DNA from: a phage
Reading direction: 5' to 3' (one strand)
Length of the DNA stretch: 64,000 bases
Assembly (NCBI GenBank): GCA_020619395.1
Contig: GCA_020619395.1_4860.1
A program made the position numbers and the translations under genes. The stretch's first letter is position 1; each line of letters begins with the position of its first letter. Under the pieces are notes generated by a model. It was not told where the DNA came from, ran no database searches, and worked only from the letters and a program-made list of their open reading frames with translations. This document shows positions 11,281 through 41,472 of the stretch, in pieces.

Positions 11281-11305
11281 CTCAGATAGATAATATCTGT
11301 CTGAG
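11281..11305. promoter_or_regulatory. palindromic intergenic motif CTCAGATAGATAATATCTGTCTGAG (candidate operator/promoter element)
   Basis: imperfect 25-nt palindrome in divergent intergenic region; core AGATAATATCT recurs at 19832, 28925 and, degenerate, at 35864, 41449, 37685. Confidence 0.4.
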
Positions 11306-19830: not shown

Positions 19831-19850
19831 TAGATAATATCTATCTCAGA
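19831..19850. promoter_or_regulatory. palindromic motif TAGATAATATCTATCTCAGA
   Basis: perfect palindrome AGATAATATCT about 33 nt upstream of the minus-strand start at 19797. Confidence 0.4.
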
Positions 19851-22914: not shown

Positions 22915-23394
22915 TCATTGCACAAGGCAACTACTTTTGTGCCGTTCGTAGGCATGATTAAAAGACTCTCTGTCTTCGCGATAGCTGCGAATGAGAGACT
23001 TAATCTGTCGTGACAAATCACGACTAATGTCCTGAGGGCTACGAGAACCAGGGTCGAGATATATCCCGGAGGGTATATCATGAAGAGTGGGGCGAATAAA
23101 CTCTTCACAAAGCGGTGCGGCCATCGGGGTGCGCCACCCCTTAGCTTCTGCGTAATTGTTCAACGACTTAGCGTACAGATAAACGTAATAAGCATAAGCG
23201 TTCACATCCGCAACAAACATTTTCCCTGCCAGCTTTTTCGCCTCAGGACTGTTCCCACCAGCATAAACTGGTGGGTGTTCTAAAGGACGAAAAGGCCAAT
23301 CTCCGGTTGAGGAGTAATCTGGGTCTACGTGACGGATGACCCCAGGACATCCTGTCAACAATAGCACCAGTATCGCCACCAAAAATAACTTCAT
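22915..23394 (-). CDS. putative outer-membrane lipoprotein (o-spanin candidate)
   Basis: N-terminal signal with lipobox LLLTGC; immediately downstream of a type-II membrane protein. Confidence 0.45.
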   Translation of the reverse strand: MKLFLVAILVLLLTGCPGVIRHVDPDYSSTGDWPFRPLEHPPVYAGGNSPEAKKLAGKMFVADVNAYAYYVYLYAKSLNNYAEAKGWRTPMAAPLCEEFIRPTLHDIPSGIYLDPGSRSPQDISRDLSRQIKSLIRSYREDRESFNHAYERHKSSCLVQ

Positions 23395-23403
23395 GTATGC
23401 TCC

Positions 23404-23919
23404 TCATGGATTATTAAGCGTACTGATAATCTCCTGTCGGAAATCATTTGCCTCCTGCGACCCTACCGGGCGAGAAGCGGCCTGGTATTTCTTGGCAGGT
23501 GGGCTAGACGGATTTAACGGTGCCGGCGGTGTTACCGGCTTGAGTTCTACAGGCGGAACCGCGGCCTCAGTGCCTGTTCCTGTTGGAGATTTGGTACCAT
23601 CATATGGCGGTCGAGAACCCAGGCACGTGAAGAGACGATCGTACAACTTATTGTTCTCCACTTCGCCATGATCGGACTTCTCTTTTAGCTCCTTATAGGA
23701 TATCTCCAGATACTGAGTACGCGATTGAACGCTAACCAGTGTGTGGTATTGAACAATGTAGGCGTATGAGACAAATGCAGAGAACGCGATCAGTGCCACT
23801 ATCACTAGTGTCACTATTTTCCCGGCTCGTGTTACTTTCTCCCCCTCGCCCGGTTTAAATGCTTCCCACAGCATTTGTAAGAATGGAAGCAGTTTGAAAA
23901 CTGATGCTATCATGCTCAC
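23404..23919 (-). CDS. putative i-spanin-like membrane protein
   Basis: one hydrophobic TM segment (IVTLVIVALIAFSAFVSYAYIV), then predicted helical region and Pro-rich C-terminus. Confidence 0.4.
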   Translation of the reverse strand: MSMIASVFKLLPFLQMLWEAFKPGEGEKVTRAGKIVTLVIVALIAFSAFVSYAYIVQYHTLVSVQSRTQYLEISYKELKEKSDHGEVENNKLYDRLFTCLGSRPPYDGTKSPTGTGTEAAVPPVELKPVTPPAPLNPSSPPAKKYQAASRPVGSQEANDFRQEIISTLNNP

Positions 23920-27203: not shown

Positions 27204-27470
27204 CTAGTTACGGTCGGAATTAAAGACGTGCCAGGTACTCCGCCAGCGAAAGAATCGGGTTATGAAACCACGTATGTGGTAGCCTGAGAACAACATCCAG
27301 ATGGTAAGAAAGAGTTGCGCCCATGGAGACGTGAGTTCCATCAGATGCGCGACAATCGCACCGATCACCAACATTACCGTAGAGAATAACAAACTATACA
27401 TCATCGGAATGTTGTGGCTATAGCGTTTCTCCATCCAGTAGAGAATATTTATTAAACGTTTCACGAACAC
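27204..27470 (-). CDS. small membrane protein (2 predicted TM helices; holin-like candidate)
   Basis: 88 aa with two hydrophobic stretches and basic C-terminus. Confidence 0.4.
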   Translation of the reverse strand: MFVKRLINILYWMEKRYSHNIPMMYSLLFSTVMLVIGAIVAHLMELTSPWAQLFLTIWMLFSGYHIRGFITRFFRWRSTWHVFNSDRN

Positions 27471-27479
27471 ACACCCAAG

Positions 27480-27517
27480 AATTAAATAAAAGGTGGTCAG
27501 ACCCGAAGGTCTGACCG
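27480..27517 (-). terminator. rho-independent terminator
   Basis: stem ggtcagacc/ggtctgacc with cgaa loop, T-run on minus. Confidence 0.6.
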
Positions 27518-27521
27518 TTAA

Positions 27522-28115
27522 TTACGCTTCGGCCTCAAAGAACGGCTGGTTCGGTACCACTGCATATTCGAGCACGAAAAGATGTTCTGGGGCATCTTCT
27601 GCTCGCCACAGTTTGTGGCACGTTGCCAGTTTTTCCAGGATGGTCAACCAGCTGAGCTGGCAGAAAGCACGATCGCCGAAGAACAGTTTCTGCAGTGCAA
27701 TCGACACATCCATATACGCCTGTTTGAAGTCGAGTTCTTTATCGTAACCCGCCGACTGTCGCCACGTCAGCACGAAGCCTGCTTCGGTTTCGTTAATTGC
27801 TGGACGTAAACCACAAATCCACATCAGCGCCAGATTAACGTTCCAGTCGAATTCGATACCTTCGTCTTCGTCATCACCAAACGCCGCGTTTAACGCGTCG
27901 TAGAAACCGTGGTTCTCTGCGAACCATTCGCCGTACTCAACGTAGACAGGTGCTTCGACAGCTTCCCCATCGGCTTCACCGATAGGACGCTCAACGTAGT
28001 TCGGATTGGTTTGAACGTGTTCCGCACCCGCGCGAATCAGTTCGTAAACGTCTTTGGCGGTGATTTGTGCGGCTGTTTTAAGACCTGGATACCAGGGGCG
28101 TGTTACGAGTGTCAA
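27522..28115 (-). CDS. hypothetical protein
   Basis: 197-aa ORF. Confidence 0.5.
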   Translation of the reverse strand: MTLVTRPWYPGLKTAAQITAKDVYELIRAGAEHVQTNPNYVERPIGEADGEAVEAPVYVEYGEWFAENHGFYDALNAAFGDDEDEGIEFDWNVNLALMWICGLRPAINETEAGFVLTWRQSAGYDKELDFKQAYMDVSIALQKLFFGDRAFCQLSWLTILEKLATCHKLWRAEDAPEHLFVLEYAVVPNQPFFEAEA

Positions 28116-28834
28116 AGCAATGCTCCTTTCATGATAGTGTTATTTGCCAGTAATGTACCGGCCGCAGGTGATATTTTGGTGTACAGCGTATCCCAGATTT
28201 TCTGAAGTTCGGCGACGCGTTGGTCGTGGTCTTCCTTCGCAAAAGCAAGCTGACGTGTTTCAGCTTTCGGTGGTGTCATTTTCGCACCGTAGAATGCTGC
28301 GTCTTTTCGGTAGCTGGCCATCCAGCGTTTCCCGACCGGTGATTTCTTTTTAATCATCGCAACAGCAGCACCCTCACCGAAGCGGTAGCCTAAAGCGATT
28401 TCGGCTGTGCTCGGCTTGCGTTTGAGTTGTTTTGTCAGATGATCCTCGATGTGTTTCATGTAAACGGCAGCAAGCTGTACAGCATATTTCGGTTTATTAA
28501 GGTCCGCATTCTTTGGGATGTTAAGTTGTTTCCCATACAGACGTATCATGGAGCGTTTAGTGCCTGTCGTCATTTGGACAACACTACTAGCACTGCTCGT
28601 TTTATTCTTACCCACGTTTTTATTAAAACGGGATTCACGATAAATGGTGGTCGCGAGCATCCCGGCATGTACGCCTTGTTTTCGAGATGCGGTGACGATG
28701 AGAGGTTTAATCTCATTGAACTGGTCCTGGATAAGGACGAATTCTTTTTGGTGTTTGTTACTGGTGGTCTGGTAAGAAGCGTTGCTGTTGAACGTAGTCA
28801 TTGCTACCAGAAGAAATAAAATGGTGCGAAACAT
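28112..28834 (-). CDS. secreted protein, possible SLT-like lytic transglycosylase
   Basis: N-terminal signal peptide (MFRTILFLLVAMTTFNSNA); YRESRFN...SSVVQMTTGT loosely fits the SLT catalytic E-S...Q motif. Confidence 0.4.
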   Translation of the reverse strand: MFRTILFLLVAMTTFNSNASYQTTSNKHQKEFVLIQDQFNEIKPLIVTASRKQGVHAGMLATTIYRESRFNKNVGKNKTSSASSVVQMTTGTKRSMIRLYGKQLNIPKNADLNKPKYAVQLAAVYMKHIEDHLTKQLKRKPSTAEIALGYRFGEGAAVAMIKKKSPVGKRWMASYRKDAAFYGAKMTPPKAETRQLAFAKEDHDQRVAELQKIWDTLYTKISPAAGTLLANNTIMKGALL

Positions 28835-28924: not shown

Positions 28925-28940
28925 TGATAATATCTATTTG
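28925..28940. promoter_or_regulatory. palindromic motif TGATAATATCTATTTG
   Basis: GATAATATC palindrome core in intergenic region upstream of 28834. Confidence 0.35.
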
Positions 28941-30067: not shown

Positions 30068-30331
30068 TTAGGGTAAAGTTGCCTCCCAGTCGTGGTGGTG
30101 AGGCTCAGGCAGCGTACCAAGCGCTGCTTTAATACACGTACTCAGCGGAGTATCATCGAACGCAACACGCCCGATAGTACCCACGTTGATGTGTTTAGGA
30201 TTTACGGGTAAGAACTCCTTCACCCGCTCGTACTCAGCCCAACAGACATCGGTGTTTAAAGCTGAAAACCCAGGACGGTGAAACATAAATAGCACTCCTC
30301 GCGTAAAAATACCCCACTCATAGTGAGGCAT
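30068..30331 (-). CDS. hypothetical protein
   Basis: 87-aa ORF. Confidence 0.4.
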   Translation of the reverse strand: MPHYEWGIFTRGVLFMFHRPGFSALNTDVCWAEYERVKEFLPVNPKHINVGTIGRVAFDDTPLSTCIKAALGTLPEPHHHDWEATLP

Positions 30332-30356: not shown

Positions 30357-30872
30357 CTATGCTACCGCAGTCCTTAAAGGTTCATCTGCTTCCGCAAGAA
30401 CCTGCTTCTTAAATTCAAGCCATTGTCCGTCTGTAGAGACGGTCTTGTCAAAACCGCGAGCGGTAAAGAACGCAATACCAGCTTCCTGGCAAGCGTATAT
30501 TCCCCCATGCGCACTGGTGAACTGTTCATTCACATCAAGCGCATCAAAAATCTGCGTCATCGTTTTACGACGGCGTGCCATTTCGGACACGAACATCGTA
30601 CGAATCTTCAGAACCCCAGCGATTACGCGATACAAACAGTAACCAACAGGGGTGCCCCCTTCCAGAGCAACACAAGCACGGTTCCCCGCCAACAGTTTCT
30701 CCAGAGTGAGGTTCGGAATCTCACCTTTTTCGATATGGAGTATGGTACGTTGGTGGTTCAGAAATTTATAATGCAGCCCCAACAGCTGTTTATTTTGTGC
30801 TTCCGTTAAATCTGAGGATGAGGAAAGAATGACAATTTCGGCCATGAGCTGAATTCCTAAGTGAGCTTTCAC
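30357..30872 (-). CDS. hypothetical protein
   Basis: 171-aa ORF; weak GNAT-like C-terminal pattern not convincing. Confidence 0.5.
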   Translation of the reverse strand: MKAHLGIQLMAEIVILSSSSDLTEAQNKQLLGLHYKFLNHQRTILHIEKGEIPNLTLEKLLAGNRACVALEGGTPVGYCLYRVIAGVLKIRTMFVSEMARRRKTMTQIFDALDVNEQFTSAHGGIYACQEAGIAFFTARGFDKTVSTDGQWLEFKKQVLAEADEPLRTAVA

Positions 30873-30991
30873 CTGCGATGAAAGCGAGTAACGAAGAATT
30901 GCGTTTGTGTTTTCTTAAGTTTACCGGTAAAGCTTAGCGGTGTATACCGCCAGAGGTGAAGACCAGTTCTCTATCGGAACCGTGTCTTTAA

Positions 30992-31270
30992 TCAGCAACG
31001 ACGTTGAAAACGTCGCGATGCTGAGGTAACCTTCCGTCGCCACATTCGCTCATGGCGCTTCTGATTACCACGCCAGTCTTCCCCGACTGTACGTGAAACT
31101 GCAAAATCATCCGGCCCGCAGACTTCCGCGATGTCTGCTAGAAGGTTCTTTGAAGACCCTATAGCCATCCCCGCGCTCGAAAGAACGATACGCCGGGTTG
31201 GCTCGGCCGCCCCTGAACCCACGACCACGGGATCAGAGACTGTTTCACTGTTACATGATACTTCTCCCAC
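30992..31270 (-). CDS. hypothetical protein
   Basis: 92-aa ORF. Confidence 0.4.
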   Translation of the reverse strand: MGEVSCNSETVSDPVVVGSGAAEPTRRIVLSSAGMAIGSSKNLLADIAEVCGPDDFAVSRTVGEDWRGNQKRHERMWRRKVTSASRRFQRRC

Positions 31271-31498
31271 TTCGTAAATGTCCTCCTGTTAAAACCAACC
31301 TTGCGTCAATGCAAGGATTGCGCCTAGGGCGTATGCGCCCGCTCCTAGTATCAGGCTACAGACGATACACCCAACCCATTTCACTAAAATAACCATGATG
31401 CCAGAAATGCTCCGATTGCACAGATGATAATCGTAATGCCAAGGTCTGTCCAGGTGGCACCATCATACGCACCTGTTGCAATCATGGCTGCGTTGACA

Positions 31499-31747
31499 CT
31501 ATTCACGACTGTCATAAGCCGGGTCCCTTAAACGCGGGGGCTTGCTCCACAGATTACCGAAGTAAACCCCTTCTAAGAACACCAAAACAACTAAGCCCCA
31601 AAAGGCAGGCGTAGCGCGAGACATGAAAATACCGAGTAGCACCACAGTGTGCATTACCACAACTGCCCAAAACTTTAAACGACCAGGTTTACGTCTTGCC
31701 ATGGAATGCCCATCCTTTCGTGCGGATAATCCAACCCCAGGCACCAC
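31499..31747 (-). CDS. small membrane protein
   Basis: 82-aa ORF (likely start at internal MARRKPG...) with two hydrophobic helices. Confidence 0.45.
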   Translation of the reverse strand: MVPGVGLSARKDGHSMARRKPGRLKFWAVVVMHTVVLLGIFMSRATPAFWGLVVLVFLEGVYFGNLWSKPPRLRDPAYDSRE

Positions 31748-31789
31748 GAATCAACCACAGTGCAATACCGGTTAATACGATACCTTCAA

Positions 31790-31981
31790 TCATGTCCGTT
31801 CCCCTATATCTCGCCACTCACAACGCGTGTCGAACAGACGTTCTTTAAGAGCAGCAGCTAAATAAACGACCGCAGCGATAACCACTACGGTTGCACAAAA
31901 GGAGAGGTACAGTACCATCACAACAAACTGAAGGAACTGAAAACCCCACCAAGCCCATAAGCGCCAACCTTTATGATGCAT
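31790..31981 (-). CDS. small membrane protein
   Basis: 63-aa ORF, Trp-rich N-terminus and TM helix. Confidence 0.4.
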   Translation of the reverse strand: MHHKGWRLWAWWGFQFLQFVVMVLYLSFCATVVVIAAVVYLAAALKERLFDTRCEWRDIGERT

Positions 31982-34481
31982 ATTTGATTATTACCCCTTC
32001 GTTATAAACCGGTGGAAGCGTTACACCTTCTGGCTCCACGACACAGTAGGTGGCTTCGTTAAGTTTAGAATGAACTTCCGCTTCATGCGAAACGACCAGC
32101 AATTGAGAAAACTCTCCCGACAACGCCAACGATTTAATGAAGTTGACCAGTCGATTTTTGTGTTCTTCATCCATGCCTTCAGAGGGTTCATCCAATAACA
32201 AAGGATAGTTTTGTAAACCAAGCGCTTTATACGCCGTTAAACGAAACATCATGTTAAAGATAATACGCTGTGCCTTCGAACCTTTCTTCACATCCGGCAC
32301 CAGTTCTTCATGGTCTTTTAATCGCACCGGGAAAGTATAATCCAAATCCCCGTCGGTTAGATCGCATGGAATAACCTGCATCGGATATGCCCACACCATT
32401 TCGATATACCGATTCATTAAATCCATGATGCGGGTAATCGCAGCATAAAAGTAACGACGCAATAATCCTTTTTCGGGTGAGACGGCATTGATAATCAATC
32501 TGGCATGATGGTGTTCTTTGAGCAACTCAGCTTGCTCTTTTTCCAATTCCGCTAAACGTGCAATAGCCCCTTCCATTTGACGAAACCGTTCACGAGCGGA
32601 AGTGTACGCATCGAGCTTCGCTTCGCGTCGGTTTAACAACTCGCGAACCACGACGTTGTTAACGGAGATGTTCATTTCCGATACCAGATGTTCGTAGCCT
32701 TTTTGGAAACGTTCGATTGCTTCTTTGGTTTGTTGCAGTTGGGTGGTTTCGCGTTCCAGCTCATTGGCTTGTCTGCGGTATTCTATCAGTCGACGGTTAG
32801 CCCCGTCCAGTTGTGAACGGATATGTTCAATTTTCTGGCTCAGCGCACCATCAACGTTACCTACTGCGGCAACAGCCTCTTGCCATTCCCGTTCCGCTGT
32901 TGCAAGCTTCGCCGATTGACGCAGATACATCATGGCCGAATCTAGCTCTTCAGTAAAGGCACGTGCAATGGCACCATAACGATCCCGCGCCGTGGTGAAG
33001 ATATCCAGCTCCTGCAGTTTACGGAAAAACAAACCGACAACAGGATGGTTGGAATACGACATGACGATTTCGCGAATCGTACGTAAGCTACGGACGTCCT
33101 CTTCAATCTCTTTGCGGTCACGCAAAAGACTATCCATTTCGTCTTTCAGCTGCTTCTTCCAACCTTCATTATCGTTGATGGCCTTTTCAATTTCAGGTAA
33201 CGACTTACGAATCCCAGGACGGAAACGGTGGTTACACTGTGGACAATCAACTTCTGCAGTTTCTAAGAAGTGTTGACGGTCGTGGTATAAACCGTGTAGC
33301 ACATTCTCACAACGTTGCAGCTTTTCAGATAGACCCGCAGAGGTTAAATCCATACCCTGTAAACGCTTCTCTAACGCTCCCAGGCGATCTGTTGTCTTTA
33401 ACTGGTCCAGATGCATGGACAACGGTAAATTCCAGTTACAGGCATCGTTTAACGCGTTCTGAATGCTATCCACATCAATGCGGGTACCTTCAAACAGAGC
33501 CGGGAACATCCAGTTCTGTTGGAACGTTGCCAGTTCCTGTTTTAAGCTGTCGATTGTTTGTTTTAGACCGGTATGGTTGCGCATCAGATACGCTTGACGC
33601 GACTCCTCATCCAGTAGCTGTGACAACTCTTTATTGTACATGTTGCATTCAGTTTCAGCAGAGGCAGCTTGCTCACGCCAGGCAACTACACGACTTTGAA
33701 ACTCGTTAATCAGTTCGTCAGAAGGCAGAACACCATAACGTTCCATAATGAGTTTTACAGCCGGTTGCAACGAAGCAATGCGTTTCCGGATACTATCAAC
33801 CGAAACGGCGTTATCTAAACCGGGTCTCGCTTCAATGGTACGGTTTAGTTCCTGAAGCTCAGCATCGAGTTCTTTCAAACGAACTTCTAAACGTGCACGA
33901 TCTTCTTCATCATCAACGACGCGCATTTTTGCTTCGCCGATTTTTCGTCCGGTGTGCTCAATGGCCCCACTTAAACTGGAAGCGAGTTTACGCAAACGTC
34001 GATAGCAACCAACAACGTACGTCAGATCAGATTCTGACATTAACGTAAACCATTTACGACGAACTTCGGTAGTGGCGTCAGTTAATAAGGTCTCACCATT
34101 AATTAACTCTTTGATTTCTTTGGTGATTCCGGTTAATTGCTCCACCATGGAGTTGTAAACTTTGGCGTTTACCGAGTCTACGATGGAGACACCTTTAGTG
34201 ATATTGAAAATACTACAAGACAAAGAAGAGCCACGACGCAGGACTTCAAACTTAAGACGGTCGTCCCCAACTAACGCGTAGTTAGTGTAGGAACCACCTT
34301 CACGGAATTCTGATTTTGCTGGAGCTAAGGGGAGAAAAACAGATAGGAGGCTTGTTTTACCGCAGCCGTTGCCACCGAGGATGATGGTAACGGTTGACTT
34401 AAGGGTGAAATCAAACGTTTCGATTTCATGTAACCCCATGCCGGTAAATCCTTTCAAAATGATACGTTCGACCTTGAGCAT
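31971..34481 (-). CDS. SbcC/Rad50-like recombination ATPase
   Basis: N-terminal Walker A GGNGCGKTS, long coiled-coil, central CPQC zinc-hook-like motif, C-terminal signature/Walker B LLLDEPSEGMD...VVSHE. Confidence 0.75.
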   Translation of the reverse strand: MLKVERIILKGFTGMGLHEIETFDFTLKSTVTIILGGNGCGKTSLLSVFLPLAPAKSEFREGGSYTNYALVGDDRLKFEVLRRGSSLSCSIFNITKGVSIVDSVNAKVYNSMVEQLTGITKEIKELINGETLLTDATTEVRRKWFTLMSESDLTYVVGCYRRLRKLASSLSGAIEHTGRKIGEAKMRVVDDEEDRARLEVRLKELDAELQELNRTIEARPGLDNAVSVDSIRKRIASLQPAVKLIMERYGVLPSDELINEFQSRVVAWREQAASAETECNMYNKELSQLLDEESRQAYLMRNHTGLKQTIDSLKQELATFQQNWMFPALFEGTRIDVDSIQNALNDACNWNLPLSMHLDQLKTTDRLGALEKRLQGMDLTSAGLSEKLQRCENVLHGLYHDRQHFLETAEVDCPQCNHRFRPGIRKSLPEIEKAINDNEGWKKQLKDEMDSLLRDRKEIEEDVRSLRTIREIVMSYSNHPVVGLFFRKLQELDIFTTARDRYGAIARAFTEELDSAMMYLRQSAKLATAEREWQEAVAAVGNVDGALSQKIEHIRSQLDGANRRLIEYRRQANELERETTQLQQTKEAIERFQKGYEHLVSEMNISVNNVVVRELLNRREAKLDAYTSARERFRQMEGAIARLAELEKEQAELLKEHHHARLIINAVSPEKGLLRRYFYAAITRIMDLMNRYIEMVWAYPMQVIPCDLTDGDLDYTFPVRLKDHEELVPDVKKGSKAQRIIFNMMFRLTAYKALGLQNYPLLLDEPSEGMDEEHKNRLVNFIKSLALSGEFSQLLVVSHEAEVHSKLNEATYCVVEPEGVTLPPVYNEGVIIKYAS

Positions 34482-34529
34482 GTTTGCCTTCTAATGAGAA
34501 AGTATTAGTCGTTCATATCCAAAAGGTCA

Positions 34530-34567
34530 TGCGTAAAAAAGAAGAAATGGAACCCCGAAGGGTTCCA
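34530..34567 (-). terminator. rho-independent terminator
   Basis: stem ggaaccc/gggttcc with cgaa loop, T-run on minus. Confidence 0.55.
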
Positions 34568-35825: not shown

Positions 35826-35863
35826 CGCAGGGCCAAAGTGAGATGGGTCGTCATCTCACGTTA

Positions 35864-35878
35864 TAACATCTGTCTGAA
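35864..35878. promoter_or_regulatory. degenerate copy of intergenic motif (ATAACATCTGTCTGA)
   Basis: matches ATAACATCTATCTG at 41449 and the AGATAATATCT family. Confidence 0.3.
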
Positions 35879-35888
35879 AACTTTTCGG

Positions 35889-36272
35889 TTACTGGTCGAG
35901 CGCTACTGAACCACGCACCACCCCTTGCTGTTCAATAACCAGGAGGCGTTGTTTGGTTTTCGTATTGTAAGCGAGCGACGCGCGAAGCGTCGGGTCGCAC
36001 GTTATTGTCTCTACTGGCACAATCTCTTGTGCCTTTGAGTTCAACAGAAAGTAGTAACCTGCCGGACAAGTTTCCTCGCCCTTTGCGTGGACTAGGATGT
36101 ACTCGTCGTGCCGGCTGACTTCTTCACATCTACCATCGTCGCCAGTACAGACTTCGAACGAAGGCGGGTTGTACTGATACGGTGTACCTGGTAGTAAATC
36201 TTCTACGCTGGTTGTAGCTGAAGCAGAAGCGGTAAAGAACACCGCCACGATAATACCCATAAATCCACGCAT
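35889..36272 (-). CDS. exported Cys-containing protein (paralogue family member 1)
   Basis: signal peptide ...ASASA; motif VC-x8-C-x-V ... C-P-A-G shared with neighbours. Confidence 0.5.
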   Translation of the reverse strand: MRGFMGIIVAVFFTASASATTSVEDLLPGTPYQYNPPSFEVCTGDDGRCEEVSRHDEYILVHAKGEETCPAGYYFLLNSKAQEIVPVETITCDPTLRASLAYNTKTKQRLLVIEQQGVVRGSVALDQ

Positions 36273-36285
36273 GTTGTTTCCTTAC

Positions 36286-36696
36286 TTAAAAGTCGAGTTT
36301 ATTGATGCCTACATTTTTCTTAATCGTAGGGTCATACATGATAACCGTCAGGGCATTATCGCCTGGGTCGCGAGTAAACTCGGCAACGGCTTCACCACTG
36401 CAGGCTTGGTTATCATTATAGTTCATGGATTCGGCTTGCCCGGTTGCCATGTTAATGACCCCGTATTCAGGGTCGCCACATGCGACACCGCCCATCGTTT
36501 TCACTAAGAGATAACGGTTGTTATCGGACATCGCAACGATCTGGCAGCTACCGCCTTGTACGTCAGAGTTCTGGCACCAGAACTCTCCGCCGTATTCGTG
36601 ATCGTTAACAACTTTTGGTAACTCGATACTTCCAGCGCGAGCGAAGAAGCTAATGGCCAGAGTAGCAAGTAAAACTGGTAATAAAAAATGTTTCAT
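36286..36696 (-). CDS. exported Cys-containing protein (paralogue family member 2)
   Basis: signal peptide ...FFARA; motif FWC-x8-C-x-IV ... ACGDP. Confidence 0.5.
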   Translation of the reverse strand: MKHFLLPVLLATLAISFFARAGSIELPKVVNDHEYGGEFWCQNSDVQGGSCQIVAMSDNNRYLLVKTMGGVACGDPEYGVINMATGQAESMNYNDNQACSGEAVAEFTRDPGDNALTVIMYDPTIKKNVGINKLDF

Positions 36697-36718
36697 AATA
36701 GCACCTCAATTTTTTGAG

Positions 36719-37210
36719 TTATTCTGAATAGTCGATTGTTTTGATGGTTTCCATACCGTAGTACATAGCGATGGAGGCCAGAGTTTTGGTATCCGGTCGC
36801 TGTACAAAACCGGCCCTGAAATCTTTGCTGCAAATTTTCTCCACTGATAGTTCATCACGATTAGGGATAAGCCATAACGCGTCACCATTGTGACGGTCGA
36901 CTGCACCCCACCAACCACCTGGGCAATCTTTATCGCCCGGACGGTGTACGATAGCGACACGACCGTTGAAGGATATGTCAACTACACGACACTGTTTCTT
37001 AAGCAGCTTACGCGCATTGCACCAGAACGGCTTATCATTAAGATTGATGGTGCGGGTATATGCTGGAATGCTGCCGTTAATACTGCCCTGGAACCCGCTG
37101 AATTCGTCAGCGCGTGCCTTAGAAATCCGTAGCCCAACAACAACTGACATCAACAGCACAGTAAAAAGCACCACTTTGGCCAAGTGGCGATTAACGTTAT
37201 TGCATTTCAT
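36719..37210 (-). CDS. exported Cys-containing protein (paralogue family member 3)
   Basis: likely start at internal MKCNN (ORF track extends to 37255); signal/anchor ...SKARA; motif FWC-x8-C-x-VV ... DCPGG. Confidence 0.5.
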   Translation of the reverse strand: MKCNNVNRHLAKVVLFTVLLMSVVVGLRISKARADEFSGFQGSINGSIPAYTRTINLNDKPFWCNARKLLKKQCRVVDISFNGRVAIVHRPGDKDCPGGWWGAVDRHNGDALWLIPNRDELSVEKICSKDFRAGFVQRPDTKTLASIAMYYGMETIKTIDYSE

Positions 37211-37598
37211 TTTTGATATCTCCACGATTGAGGGTGATGCGACCGACGAGCACATCGTTGTGATAAAAGCTCACAGCAACCATATTCGGTAATTCCAGTG
37301 GTGACACACTGACCGAGGTGACTTTTGGTTGATTGCACGATATGTCAATCAACCGCTGATACATTTTCAATTTCTTATCAGCGATAACCAGCCCTGTGCA
37401 GTTCTTACCGTCCGTCAGTCTGTAGATTTGTAACTGTTCGACCTCACGCATCAGTTCCGGTTTTTCATTCGGCGCAATGCCATAATCCGAATCAGCTGAT
37501 GTGTATTCAGTCACGTCTGGCTTATCGAAAGCATAAGTTGCTGCAATACCACATGCGGCCAGAACTACTACTGCTTGTAAGAACTTCTTGATAGTCAT
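37197..37598 (-). CDS. putative lipoprotein
   Basis: N-terminal signal with lipobox VLAACG; 133 aa. Confidence 0.5.
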   Translation of the reverse strand: MTIKKFLQAVVVLAACGIAATYAFDKPDVTEYTSADSDYGIAPNEKPELMREVEQLQIYRLTDGKNCTGLVIADKKLKMYQRLIDISCNQPKVTSVSVSPLELPNMVAVSFYHNDVLVGRITLNRGDIKNEMQ

Positions 37599-37653: not shown

Positions 37654-37703
37654 GTTGAGTTAATCTCTTAACTCTCACCTAGGTAATATATATCTGAGAT
37701 ATT

Positions 37704-41448: not shown

Positions 41449-41464
41449 AAGATAACATCTATCT
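41449..41464. promoter_or_regulatory. degenerate copy of intergenic motif (AGATAACATCTATCTG)
   Basis: intergenic, about 60 nt upstream of the minus-strand start at 41387. Confidence 0.3.
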
Positions 41465-41472
41465 GTAAAAAC

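What the first reader, a model, noticed from the sequence alone, without database searches (positions are those of the whole stretch)
30992..31981. Run of small hydrophobic proteins downstream of the SbcC-like gene
The 63-aa and 82-aa ORFs each have two predicted membrane helices, and further sub-threshold ORFs lie between them and 30992 (for example a 54-aa ORF starting at 31515 on the minus strand, and a possible 34-aa ORF overlapping the 82-aa gene start). Clusters of tiny membrane proteins in phages often mediate host takeover, lysis timing or immunity and are routinely missed in annotation.
Basis: seen in the sequence. Interest (0 to 1): 0.4.

Follow-up and report, generated by a model that had tools for sequence, protein, structure and literature searches.

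The report
Six tiny genes after phage SbcC
Downstream of the SbcC-like nuclease gene of this SPN3US-type giant Salmonella phage lie five real, conserved genes for very small membrane proteins and a sixth, mostly unannotated, 92-residue basic protein; several are missing from public annotations and none has a known function.

Summary
The window is a Seoulvirus (SPN3US-like, 97-98.6% identical) nucleus-forming jumbo phage.

On the minus strand, from the SbcC stop codon, five tiny hydrophobic ORFs tile 693 nt. Every junction overlaps by 4-17 nt:
- smp1, 63 aa
- smp2, 34 aa
- smp3, 67 aa (not 82)
- smp4, 43 aa (not 54)
- smp5, 31-35 aa

A GTG-initiated, non-hydrophobic 92-aa ORF (ORF92) follows.

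All six are under purifying selection: dN/dS is 0.06-0.5 while synonymous sites are near saturation. The module recurs after SbcC in four genera and in metagenomic relatives. Its content varies: smp1 and smp2 are always present, while smp3, smp4, smp5 and ORF92 come and go.

No holin, defence or other named family matches. A separate plausible lysis set lies elsewhere in the window. No early-promoter-like motif precedes the unit; a conserved terminator and TATG element precedes SbcC.

Function is unresolved. My best guess is a fast-evolving accessory island of inner-membrane microproteins acting at the host envelope. The main rival is a membrane partner of SbcCD, an idea already raised in print for gp187. 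The finding is ordinary but useful for annotation.

The parts
31971..34481 (-). SbcC-like (SMC/Rad50-type) ATPase gene, SPN3US gp186 homologue. It is the first gene of the transcription unit, and its stop codon overlaps the smp1 start by 11 nt.
   Evidence: Essential in SPN3US according to PMC5105663.
31790..31981 (-). smp1, 63 aa (SPN3US gp187). It has one hydrophobic stretch of about 37 residues with a central conserved Y-x-x-F-C. The N-terminus is basic and the charged C-terminal tail carries RLFD.RCEWR. Present in every SPN3US-like lineage examined.
   Evidence: dN/dS 0.25-0.28; phrog_16515, 2.6e-29; AF2: single helix 3-62, pLDDT 84.6.
31689..31793 (-). smp2, 34 aa. An N-terminal TM helix is followed by a Trp-rich basic tail (W.WII[RK]..KGWAF). 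The start overlaps the smp1 stop (ATGA). Not annotated in SPN3US or EC001. It is the most conserved member and is always present together with smp1.
   Evidence: dN/dS 0.06-0.44; phrog_13448, 5.8e-9.
The N-terminus is basic (MARRKPGRLK), there are two hydrophobic segments, and the conserved tail is PP.LRDPAYD.RE. Lost in Erwinia phage pEa_SNUABM_29 and in several metagenomic clades.
   Evidence: dN/dS 0.16-0.17; phrog_18173, 3.6e-40.
31384..31515 (-). smp4, 43 aa (SPN3US gp189). The N-terminal half is neutral to acidic and a C-terminal TM helix ends in ..WLF. There are no Lys or Arg residues. Found only in Seoulvirus and one metagenomic clade (L022-L025).
   Evidence: dN/dS 0.08; phrog_29196, 7.7e-33.
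31289..31396 (-). smp5, 35 aa from ATG 31396, or 31 aa from GTG 31384, which shares one base with the smp4 stop codon. It has a single TM helix with an invariant C-terminus GA[IV]..LT[QH]GWF. Annotated in only a few records.
   Evidence: (dN/dS 0.17-0.50).
30992..31270 (-). ORF92, a 92-aa GTG-start gene with AGGAGG 10 nt upstream. It is not hydrophobic. It has a basic C-terminal helix and the conserved motif GEDWRG..RHER. It is unannotated or annotated in a wrong frame in most Seoulvirus records, and it co-occurs with smp5 in most lineages.
   Evidence: phrog_15402, 1e-11; dN/dS 0.23-0.41.
34514..34567 (-). Intrinsic-terminator hairpin (34567..34548), T-run TTTTTTAC (34540..34533) and GGATATG (34518..34514) directly upstream of SbcC. 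This is the putative start of the transcription unit.
   Evidence: The arrangement is conserved across genera, with TATG in 9 of 13 loci by my reading of the sequences printed. The comparison with the phiKZ nvRNAP 'TATG' late promoter is taken from PMC5312081 and is an inference.
27495..27516 (-). Next strong terminator-like hairpin on the minus strand, and so the likely end of the unit. The unit runs SbcC, smp1-5, ORF92, GNAT and onward to the macro-domain gene, the signal-peptide SLT gene and gp199.
   Evidence: No comparably strong minus-strand terminator lies between 34548 and 27516.

Best explanation
Shown: the interval holds six real protein-coding genes in a terminator-bounded unit that begins with the essential SbcC-like gene. 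Five encode inner-membrane-type microproteins of 31-67 aa. Their start and stop codons overlap at every junction, including the SbcC-smp1 junction, which implies translational coupling. The sixth (ORF92) is a small basic soluble protein with its own strong ribosome-binding site.

Shown: across SPN3US-like phages the module is a plastic island. smp1 and smp2 are invariant. smp3, smp4, smp5 and ORF92 are gained, lost or replaced by other tiny TM ORFs between close relatives.

Inferred: these are non-core accessory proteins made in the middle or late programme. They would insert into the host inner membrane, with their conserved charged or Trp-rich tails in the cytoplasm, and act on the cell envelope. 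Possible roles are exclusion of superinfecting phage or modulation of a host membrane machine or defence, in the manner of T4 Imm-type proteins embedded among DNA-metabolism genes. They would not serve lysis or DNA repair.

Confidence that the genes are real, membrane-directed and co-expressed is about 0.95. The confidence figure given for this explanation (0.38) is for the inferred function.
For: - Coding status: dN/dS is 0.06-0.5 with pS 0.5-0.8 for all six genes against SPAsTU, pEa_SNUABM_29 and Asesino.
- PHROG families of unknown function match smp1-4 and ORF92.
- Hydrophobic segments and charge distribution.
- Overlaps of 4-17 nt at all junctions.
- Synteny and variable content in Seoulvirus, Erskinevirus, Machinavirus, Wellingtonvirus and metagenomic clades.
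- More distant relatives go straight from SbcC to macro-domain and SLT genes (L037) or to an SLT gene (Miami, ACP1). This suggests the small genes fill a variable slot.
- Neighbours in the same unit include a GNAT, a macro domain and a secreted SLT.
- In phiKZ most small genes are dispensable and cluster in putative host-interaction regions (PMC12676376).
- T4 imm, an 83-aa 2-TM protein, sits between DNA-metabolism genes 42 and 43.
Against: - There is no sequence similarity to T4 Imm or any exclusion, defence or anti-defence family.
- The invariant, SbcC-overlapping smp1-smp2 pair behaves less like a freely exchangeable accessory gene than the other members do.
- There are no expression, localisation or phenotype data.
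- Topologies are inferred from hydropathy and the positive-inside rule only. AF2 gives smp1 as one long helix.
Confidence: 0.38

Rival explanations
1. Membrane partner of the phage SbcCD nuclease. On this view smp1, probably with smp2, is made in fixed ratio with SbcC through translational coupling. It would tether or regulate the Mre11/Rad50-type nuclease at the inner membrane. This has been suggested for T4 gp47.1 with gp46/47, and was proposed for SPN3US gp187 by Thomas et al. 2016.
For: - The smp1 start lies within -16 to +4 nt of the SbcC stop in every SPN3US-like lineage.
- smp1 and smp2 are the only invariant members.
- Unrelated small TM genes also sit directly after SbcC in CR5/EarlPhillipIV, 201phi2-1, PhiPA3, Ralstonia FLC4-3B and Moabite.
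- T4 47.1 (46 aa, predicted membrane protein) overlaps the start of gene 47, which encodes SbcD.
- The suggestion is in print in PMC5105663.
Against: - In nucleus-forming phages the replicating DNA lies inside a protein shell without a membrane, so an integral membrane anchor would keep an essential recombination nuclease away from its substrate. This follows from established chimallivirus biology and is an inference.
- phiKZ, Goslar, Deimos-Minion, Miami, phiKT1019, an EL-like phage and FLC8 have SbcC without such a neighbour.
- The lineages compared are not independent, and the TM proteins are not detectably homologous between them.
- smp1 diverges much faster (34-55% identity) than the SbcC C-terminus (65-77%).
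Confidence: 0.2
2. Lysis control. On this view one or more of the 2-TM proteins (smp1, smp3) acts as a holin, pinholin or antiholin that times activation of the Sec-exported SLT 'endolysin' encoded in the same terminator-bounded unit.
For: - The proteins are small, have one or two TM segments and carry charged C-terminal tails.
- They share a transcription unit with the signal-peptide SLT gene at 28834..28112.
Against: - No Pfam, PHROG or NCBIfam holin family matches, even at E <= 1.
- The small genes lie about 2.5 kb and about 7 genes upstream of the SLT gene.
- A better-placed candidate exists: an 88-aa 2-TM protein at 27470..27204, two genes after the SLT gene. An i-spanin-like and lipoprotein pair lies at 23919..22915.
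- Members are lost in close relatives (pEa_SNUABM_29, L022-L025, L029), which is unexpected for essential lysis functions.
- The phiKZ holin is a different type, class IIIb with a large cytoplasmic domain (PMC12894885).
Confidence: 0.1
3. Early host-takeover toxins. On this view the small hydrophobic peptides are made immediately after injection and depolarise or reprogramme the host membrane.
For: Only the general precedent of small toxic membrane peptides in phages. No tool result supports this reading specifically.
Against: - No copy of the AT-rich early-promoter-like motif (7 copies in the window against 0.49 expected) lies upstream of the unit.
- The nearest upstream copy is separated from SbcC by two strong terminators.
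- The unit starts with a recombination gene and a TATG-type element.
Confidence: 0.05
4. Chance ORFs or a non-coding element. On this view the hydrophobic ORFs are by-products of T/G-rich sequence, and the unannotated stretch of about 280 nt is a structured RNA.
For: - The 280-nt stretch is GC-richer than its surroundings (0.52-0.60).
- It is annotated inconsistently or not at all in public records.
Against: - Purifying selection acts in the proposed frames.
- Protein-level conservation persists at 30-40% identity in other genera, where the DNA no longer aligns.
- No Rfam or tRNA hit was found.
- The shuffle test gave 1 in 2000.
Confidence: 0.02

Closest known systems
SPN3US gp187, gp188 and gp189 (hypothetical proteins), and the remark on gp187 in Thomas et al. 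2016 (PMC5105663)
   Same: They are the same genes at 97-98% DNA identity. gp187 was already described as a 63-aa protein with a predicted TM domain immediately downstream of the SbcC gene.
   Different: The published annotation lacks smp2, smp5 and ORF92. It carries a probably spurious 40-aa 'gp190' in another frame. No comparative, selection or phyletic analysis had been reported, and no function is known.
T4 gp47.1 (46-aa predicted membrane protein overlapping gene 47, which encodes SbcD)
   Same: It is a tiny TM ORF translationally coupled to a gene of the phage SbcCD/Mre11-Rad50 nuclease.
   Different: It has no sequence similarity (z <= 1.0). It lies upstream of SbcD rather than downstream of SbcC. 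It is a single gene rather than a run of five. T4 has no phage nucleus. The anchoring role of gp47.1 is itself only a suggestion.
T4 Imm (83 aa, 2 TM; immunity to superinfection)
   Same: It is a small inner-membrane protein encoded amid DNA-metabolism genes. It is the model for the function I favour.
   Different: It has no sequence similarity (z <= 1.5). Imm is an early gene, whereas this unit lacks an early-type promoter motif. No exclusion phenotype has been tested here.
Class II holins and pinholins (for example S21 68)
   Same: They share small size, two TM segments and a charged C-terminus with smp1 and smp3.
   Different: There is no family match, no adjacency to the endolysin or spanins, no dual-start motif, and the genes are dispensable in relatives.

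Membership tests
PHROG families of unknown function (phrog_16515, 13448, 18173, 29196, 15402) | Significant profile-HMM match over most of the protein | tested here: met
   smp1 2.6e-29, smp2 5.8e-9, smp3 3.6e-40, smp4 7.7e-33, ORF92 1e-11. smp5 has no significant match (0.016).
Holins (classes I-III, pinholins) | At least one transmembrane domain in a small protein | tested here: met
   Hydropathy analysis. The AF2 helix for smp1.
Holins (classes I-III, pinholins) | Homology to a described holin family | tested here: not met
   No holin model in Pfam, PHROGs or NCBIfam matches at E <= 1.
Holins (classes I-III, pinholins) | Position in a lysis cassette next to the endolysin or spanin genes | tested here: not met
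   The SLT gene lies about 2.5 kb downstream with about 7 genes in between. A separate 88-aa 2-TM gene and a spanin-like pair lie closer to it.
Holins (classes I-III, pinholins) | Timed lethal membrane permeabilisation that can be triggered by energy poisons | not testable with these tools
   This needs induction experiments such as those done for phiKZ gp142 (PMC12894885).
T4 Imm/Sp-type superinfection exclusion proteins | Small inner-membrane protein with 1-2 TM segments | tested here: met
T4 Imm/Sp-type superinfection exclusion proteins | Sequence relationship to Imm | tested here: not met
   Local alignment scores are within 1.5 sd of shuffled controls.
T4 Imm/Sp-type superinfection exclusion proteins | Blocks DNA entry of a second phage | not testable with these tools
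   This requires superinfection assays.
SbcCD-associated membrane protein (T4 gp47.1-like) | Tiny TM ORF translationally coupled to an sbcC or sbcD gene | tested here: met
   SbcC and smp1 overlap by 11 nt. The coupling is conserved in all SPN3US-like loci. T4 47.1 and 47 overlap.
SbcCD-associated membrane protein (T4 gp47.1-like) | Sequence relationship to gp47.1 | tested here: not met
   (z <= 1.0).
SbcCD-associated membrane protein (T4 gp47.1-like) | Physical association with the nuclease, or membrane localisation of the nuclease | not testable with these tools
   No localisation or interaction data were found.
Known anti-phage defence or candidate defence proteins (PADLOC) | Profile match | tested here: not met
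   no match at E <= 1 for any of the six proteins.

The most novel reading that the evidence does not exclude
The invariant, SbcC-coupled pair smp1-smp2 may be a dedicated membrane partner of the essential phage SbcCD nuclease. The non-homologous micro-TM genes that follow SbcC in CR5-like phages, 201phi2-1, PhiPA3, FLC4-3B and Moabite, and T4 47.1, would be analogous partners. In a nucleus-forming phage this would mean that part of the Mre11/Rad50-type machinery works at a lipid membrane outside the protein nucleus. It could act in host-chromosome destruction, or at the membrane-bound early infection vesicle.
Probability: 0.12. Interest if true: 0.65.

Novelty: new member of a known kind. Interest (0 to 1): 0.3.

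Why it matters
The practical gain is annotation. One of the best-conserved genes of the locus (smp2), smp5 and a 92-aa GTG-start gene are absent or mis-framed in most of the roughly 35 public Seoulvirus genomes. SPN3US 'gp190' is probably not a gene. Proteomic searches against those annotations cannot detect the missing proteins.

The biological gain is a compact, phylogenetically variable set of membrane microproteins in a genetically tractable nucleus-forming phage. It comes with a clear invariant core (smp1-smp2) and testable alternatives: envelope or exclusion function versus SbcCD partner. In its present state it is an ordinary 'small hypothetical membrane proteins' locus, not a new type of system.

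Tried and rejected
- **Non-coding RNA in the unannotated 280 nt:** no tRNA and no Rfam family in the window. The stretch codes for ORF92.
- **Conserved terminator or attenuator inside the 3' end of smp5** (hairpin 31316..31299 plus T-run): the hairpin is kept only in Seoulvirus and partly in Erskinevirus. The peptide motif LT[QH]GWF is kept everywhere, so the protein is what is conserved.
- **Distant homologues:**
  - Word-indexed searches of 5.8 billion proteins with ORF92, smp3 and smp1 found only close relatives.
  - An exhaustive HMM search of 1.84 billion representatives with an ORF92 profile found 3 hits, all close.
  - smp2 was too short to submit.
- **Named families:** nothing significant in Pfam, NCBIfam or PADLOC.
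- **ORF92 fold:**
  - The AF2 model has low confidence (pLDDT 60, only a C-terminal helix), so no fold search was run.
  - A PDB profile search gave no hits at E <= 10.
  - A remembered resemblance of its N-terminal part to acyl-carrier-protein helix 1 was not supported.
  - Single-member weak Pfam hits to Rossmann-type N-termini (MurD-like_N, 0.0041) reflect only a G.G..G-like stretch.
- **Similarity to T4 gp47.1 or Imm:** none.
- **SPN3US infection proteome paper (PMC6384053):** not held. No SPN3US transcriptome was found.
- **smp4 as a paralogue of smp5:** the C-termini align loosely (..GA.LA..W.F). The sequences are too short to test this.

Full report
**Identity of the window and layout.** The 1.6 kb around the finding is 97-98.6% identical to Salmonella/Escherichia phages of the genus Seoulvirus, including SPN3US, EC001 and the SPFM and SPLA series. 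These are 240-kb phiKZ-related jumbo phages. All genes here are on the minus strand. In transcription order they are:

| Gene | Coordinates | Size | Note |
|---|---|---|---|
| SbcC-like ATPase | 34481..31971 | | SPN3US gp186; essential according to PMC5105663 |
| smp1 | 31981..31790 | 63 aa | gp187 |
| smp2 | 31793..31689 | 34 aa | |
| smp3 | 31702..31499 | 67 aa | gp188 |
| smp4 | 31515..31384 | 43 aa | gp189 |
| smp5 | 31396 or 31384..31289 | 35 or 31 aa | |
| ORF92 | 31270..30992 | 92 aa | GTG start, AGGAGG 10 nt upstream |
| GNAT acetyltransferase | 30845..30357 | | |

Successive genes from SbcC to smp5 overlap by 11, 4, 14, 17 and 13 nt. ORF92 follows after 18 nt.

**Check of the observation.**
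- The '82-aa' ORF is a GTG-extended reading of a 67-aa gene. Its ATG and basic N-terminus are conserved in relatives.
- The ORF starting at 31515 is 43 aa, not 54.
- There is a fifth hydrophobic ORF, smp5.
- The remaining 280 nt down to 30992 is a non-hydrophobic ORF with GRAVY -0.50.

By Kyte-Doolittle hydropathy, smp1 has one stretch of about 37 residues, smp3 has two segments, and smp2, smp4 and smp5 have one each. AlphaFold2 with a shallow alignment models smp1 as one continuous helix (residues 3-62, pLDDT 84.6). Whether smp1 spans the membrane once or as a hairpin is therefore open. Basic residues at both ends favour a hairpin, but this is an inference.

The cluster is not a composition artefact:
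- Five such ORFs in 711 nt appeared in 1 of 2000 shuffles.
- No sliding 711-nt window sampled anywhere in the 64 kb held more than 4; I did not check which windows gave the counts of 3-4.
- Only one other small TM ORF lies outside long genes in the window.

**Coding status.** I compared the window with three relatives whose synonymous sites are near saturation (pS 0.5-0.8): SPAsTU, Erwinia phage pEa_SNUABM_29 and Erskinevirus Asesino. Nei-Gojobori dN/dS values were as follows.

| Gene | dN/dS |
|---|---|
| smp1 | 0.25-0.28 |
| smp2 | 0.06-0.44 |
| smp3 | 0.16-0.17 |
| smp4 | 0.08 |
| smp5 | 0.17-0.50 |
| ORF92 | 0.23-0.41 |
| GNAT (neighbouring control) | 0.08-0.13 |

ORF92 homologues at 30-40% identity are annotated genes in Machinavirus and Wellingtonvirus. 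They share the motif GEDW[RQH]G..RHE/Q and a basic tail. The GTG start and the MG[ED]S.C N-terminus are conserved within Seoulvirus.

Public annotation is patchy:
- SPN3US lacks smp2, smp5 and ORF92. It carries a 40-aa 'gp190' (window 31043..30921) in another frame.
- EC001 lacks smp2 and places a 106-aa ORF in a different frame.
- pEa_SNUABM_29 annotates a third frame.
- Nothing is annotated under ORF92 in 20 of the 34 near-identical records listed.

**Distribution.** I anchored on the SbcC C-terminus and examined annotated phages and 19 IMG/VR loci.

| Lineage | Content after SbcC |
|---|---|
| Seoulvirus | All six genes; pEa_SNUABM_29 has lost smp3 |
| Erskinevirus | No smp4 |
| Machinavirus | No smp4; smp3 divergent |
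| Wellingtonvirus | A 128-aa non-TM insert, an extra 46-aa TM ORF, and a 3-TM smp3-like protein |
| Metagenomic clade L022-L025 | Only smp1, smp2 and an smp4-like gene, then GNAT directly |
| L029 | smp1, smp2 and ORF92 |
| L028 | Different tiny TM ORFs at the smp1 and smp3 positions |

smp1 and smp2 are the invariant core, and the smp1 start always lies within -16 to +4 nt of the SbcC stop. Conserved motifs are concentrated in the predicted cytoplasmic tails:
- smp1: ..RCEWR
- smp2: W.W[IV][IL][KR]..KGA[FM]
- smp3: PP.LRDPAYD.RE
- smp5: GA[IV]..LT[QH]GWF-COOH

Further out, the picture is mixed:
- CR5-like phages have a single 112-aa multi-TM protein after SbcC.
- 201phi2-1, PhiPA3, Ralstonia FLC4-3B and Moabite have unrelated small TM genes there.
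- phiKZ, Goslar, Deimos-Minion, Miami, phiKT1019, an EL-like phage and FLC8 have none.
- L037, Miami and ACP1 go from SbcC almost directly to a signal-peptide SLT gene, with or without a macro-domain gene.

**Transcription context.** A strong hairpin with a T-run (34567..34548) ends the preceding unit. It is followed by TTTTTTAC and then GGATATG about 15 nt later. This arrangement of hairpin, T-run and TATG is conserved upstream of SbcC across the four genera, with TATG in 9 of 13 loci by my reading of the sequences printed. It resembles the TATG late promoter reported for the phiKZ non-virion RNA polymerase, as summarised in PMC5312081. That resemblance is an inference.

An AT-rich motif, CAGATAGATRTTATCT, occurs 7 times in intergenic positions of the window against 0.49 expected. 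It has the character described for virion-RNAP early promoters of phiKZ-like phages. None lies upstream of this unit, and the nearest upstream copy is separated from SbcC by two terminators. The next strong minus-strand terminator is at 27516..27495. The small genes are therefore probably co-transcribed with SbcC, GNAT, a macro-domain gene and a signal-peptide SLT gene, in the middle or late programme.

**Function.** No named family matches any of the six proteins in Pfam, NCBIfam, PADLOC or annotated PHROGs. Deep searches found only close relatives.

*Lysis role.* This is unlikely. The window holds a separate plausible set:
- the SLT gene (28834..28112, cleavable-type signal peptide);
- an 88-aa 2-TM protein two genes further on (27470..27204);
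- an i-spanin-like protein with a TM segment, a coiled coil and a Pro-rich tail (23919..23404);
- an adjacent lipoprotein with an LLTGC lipobox (23394..22915).

In addition, members of the small-gene run are dispensable in relatives. The only characterised chimallivirus holin (phiKZ gp142) is of a different type (PMC12894885).

*SbcCD partner.* The idea that gp187 anchors SbcCD, by analogy with T4 gp47.1, is already in print (PMC5105663). It gains some support from the invariant coupling of smp1-smp2 to SbcC and from the recurrence of unrelated micro-TM genes next to sbcC or sbcD, including T4 47.1. Three points weigh against it. It conflicts with replication inside a membrane-less protein nucleus. 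Such genes are absent from many chimalliviruses. There is no sequence similarity to gp47.1.

*Accessory envelope function.* The high turnover of members, the position in a variable slot of an otherwise syntenic backbone, and the company of probable host-directed enzymes fit an accessory, envelope-acting role best. T4 Imm-like exclusion or modulation of a host membrane component are examples. This is my favoured reading, but only at about 0.4. The SbcCD-partner model is at about 0.2, lysis control about 0.1, early takeover about 0.05, and artefact about 0.02.

**Verdict.** The feature is real and better defined than before: six genes, three of them largely unannotated, an invariant core pair, and defined motifs and regulatory context. 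It remains a locus of small hypothetical membrane proteins in a known phage group. One member has already been discussed in the literature. Interest is modest.

Noticed in passing
window 30921..31043 (-): SPN3US 'gp190' (40 aa) overlaps the 3' end of ORF92 in another frame and runs into poorly conserved intergenic DNA. EC001 and pEa_SNUABM_29 annotate yet other frames here. It is probably not a gene.
   Followed up: partly
window 11283-11303, 19832-19847, 28925-28940, 35861-35876, 37681-37696, 41450-41465: An AT-rich motif, CAGATAGATRTTATCT, often followed by GTGAG, occurs 7 times against 0.49 expected. All copies are intergenic or at gene ends. It is a candidate virion-RNAP early promoter of SPN3US-like phages. 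One copy sits just upstream of the signal-peptide SLT 'endolysin' gene.
   Followed up: partly
window 34514..34567 (-), and the equivalent positions in L019-L034: A terminator hairpin with a TTCG tetraloop, a T-run ending in AC, and TATG about 15 nt later are conserved upstream of SbcC across four genera. This is a candidate non-virion-RNAP promoter placed immediately after a terminator.
   Followed up: partly
window 28112..28834, 27204..27470, 23404..23919, 22915..23394 (all -): A candidate lysis set for SPN3US-like phages: an SLT-domain protein with a cleavable-type signal peptide; an 88-aa 2-TM protein two genes downstream (no PHROG match); a TM, coiled-coil and Pro-rich i-spanin-like protein; and an adjacent 159-aa lipoprotein with an LLTGC lipobox.
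   Followed up: partly
window 30068..30331 (-): A small protein (SPN3US gp192 region) whose relatives carry an EF-Tu G1-like motif, NVGTIGHVDHSRS. Huxley annotates it as 'putative elongation factor Tu'. The motif is degenerate in this window (NVGTIGRVAFDD).
   Followed up: no
window 35889..37598 (-): Four consecutive genes of 127-178 aa each have an N-terminal signal peptide or TM segment. Two of them cross-match each other's PHROGs (8968 and 17072), which suggests a paralogous family of exported proteins just upstream of the gp185/SbcC region.
   Followed up: no
L041 (Ralstonia phage FLC4-3B) 1733..2299: Directly after SbcC lie a 42-aa TM ORF and a 139-aa protein whose C-terminal TM helix ends ..SALVLKWF. 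This recalls the ..LTQGWF and ..SWLF C-termini of smp5 and smp4. It may be convergence or very remote homology.
   Followed up: no
public records LR535901, LR535903-LR535908, LR535911-LR535913, LR535917 (SPFM1, 5-10, 12, 14, 15, 20): Matches of these genomes to the 1.1-1.6 kb query break into 18-26 pieces at about 98% identity. Their small proteins are truncated or chimeric (P0004-6, P0010-13, P0016-18). This points to indel-rich assemblies that corrupt small-gene annotation.
   Followed up: no
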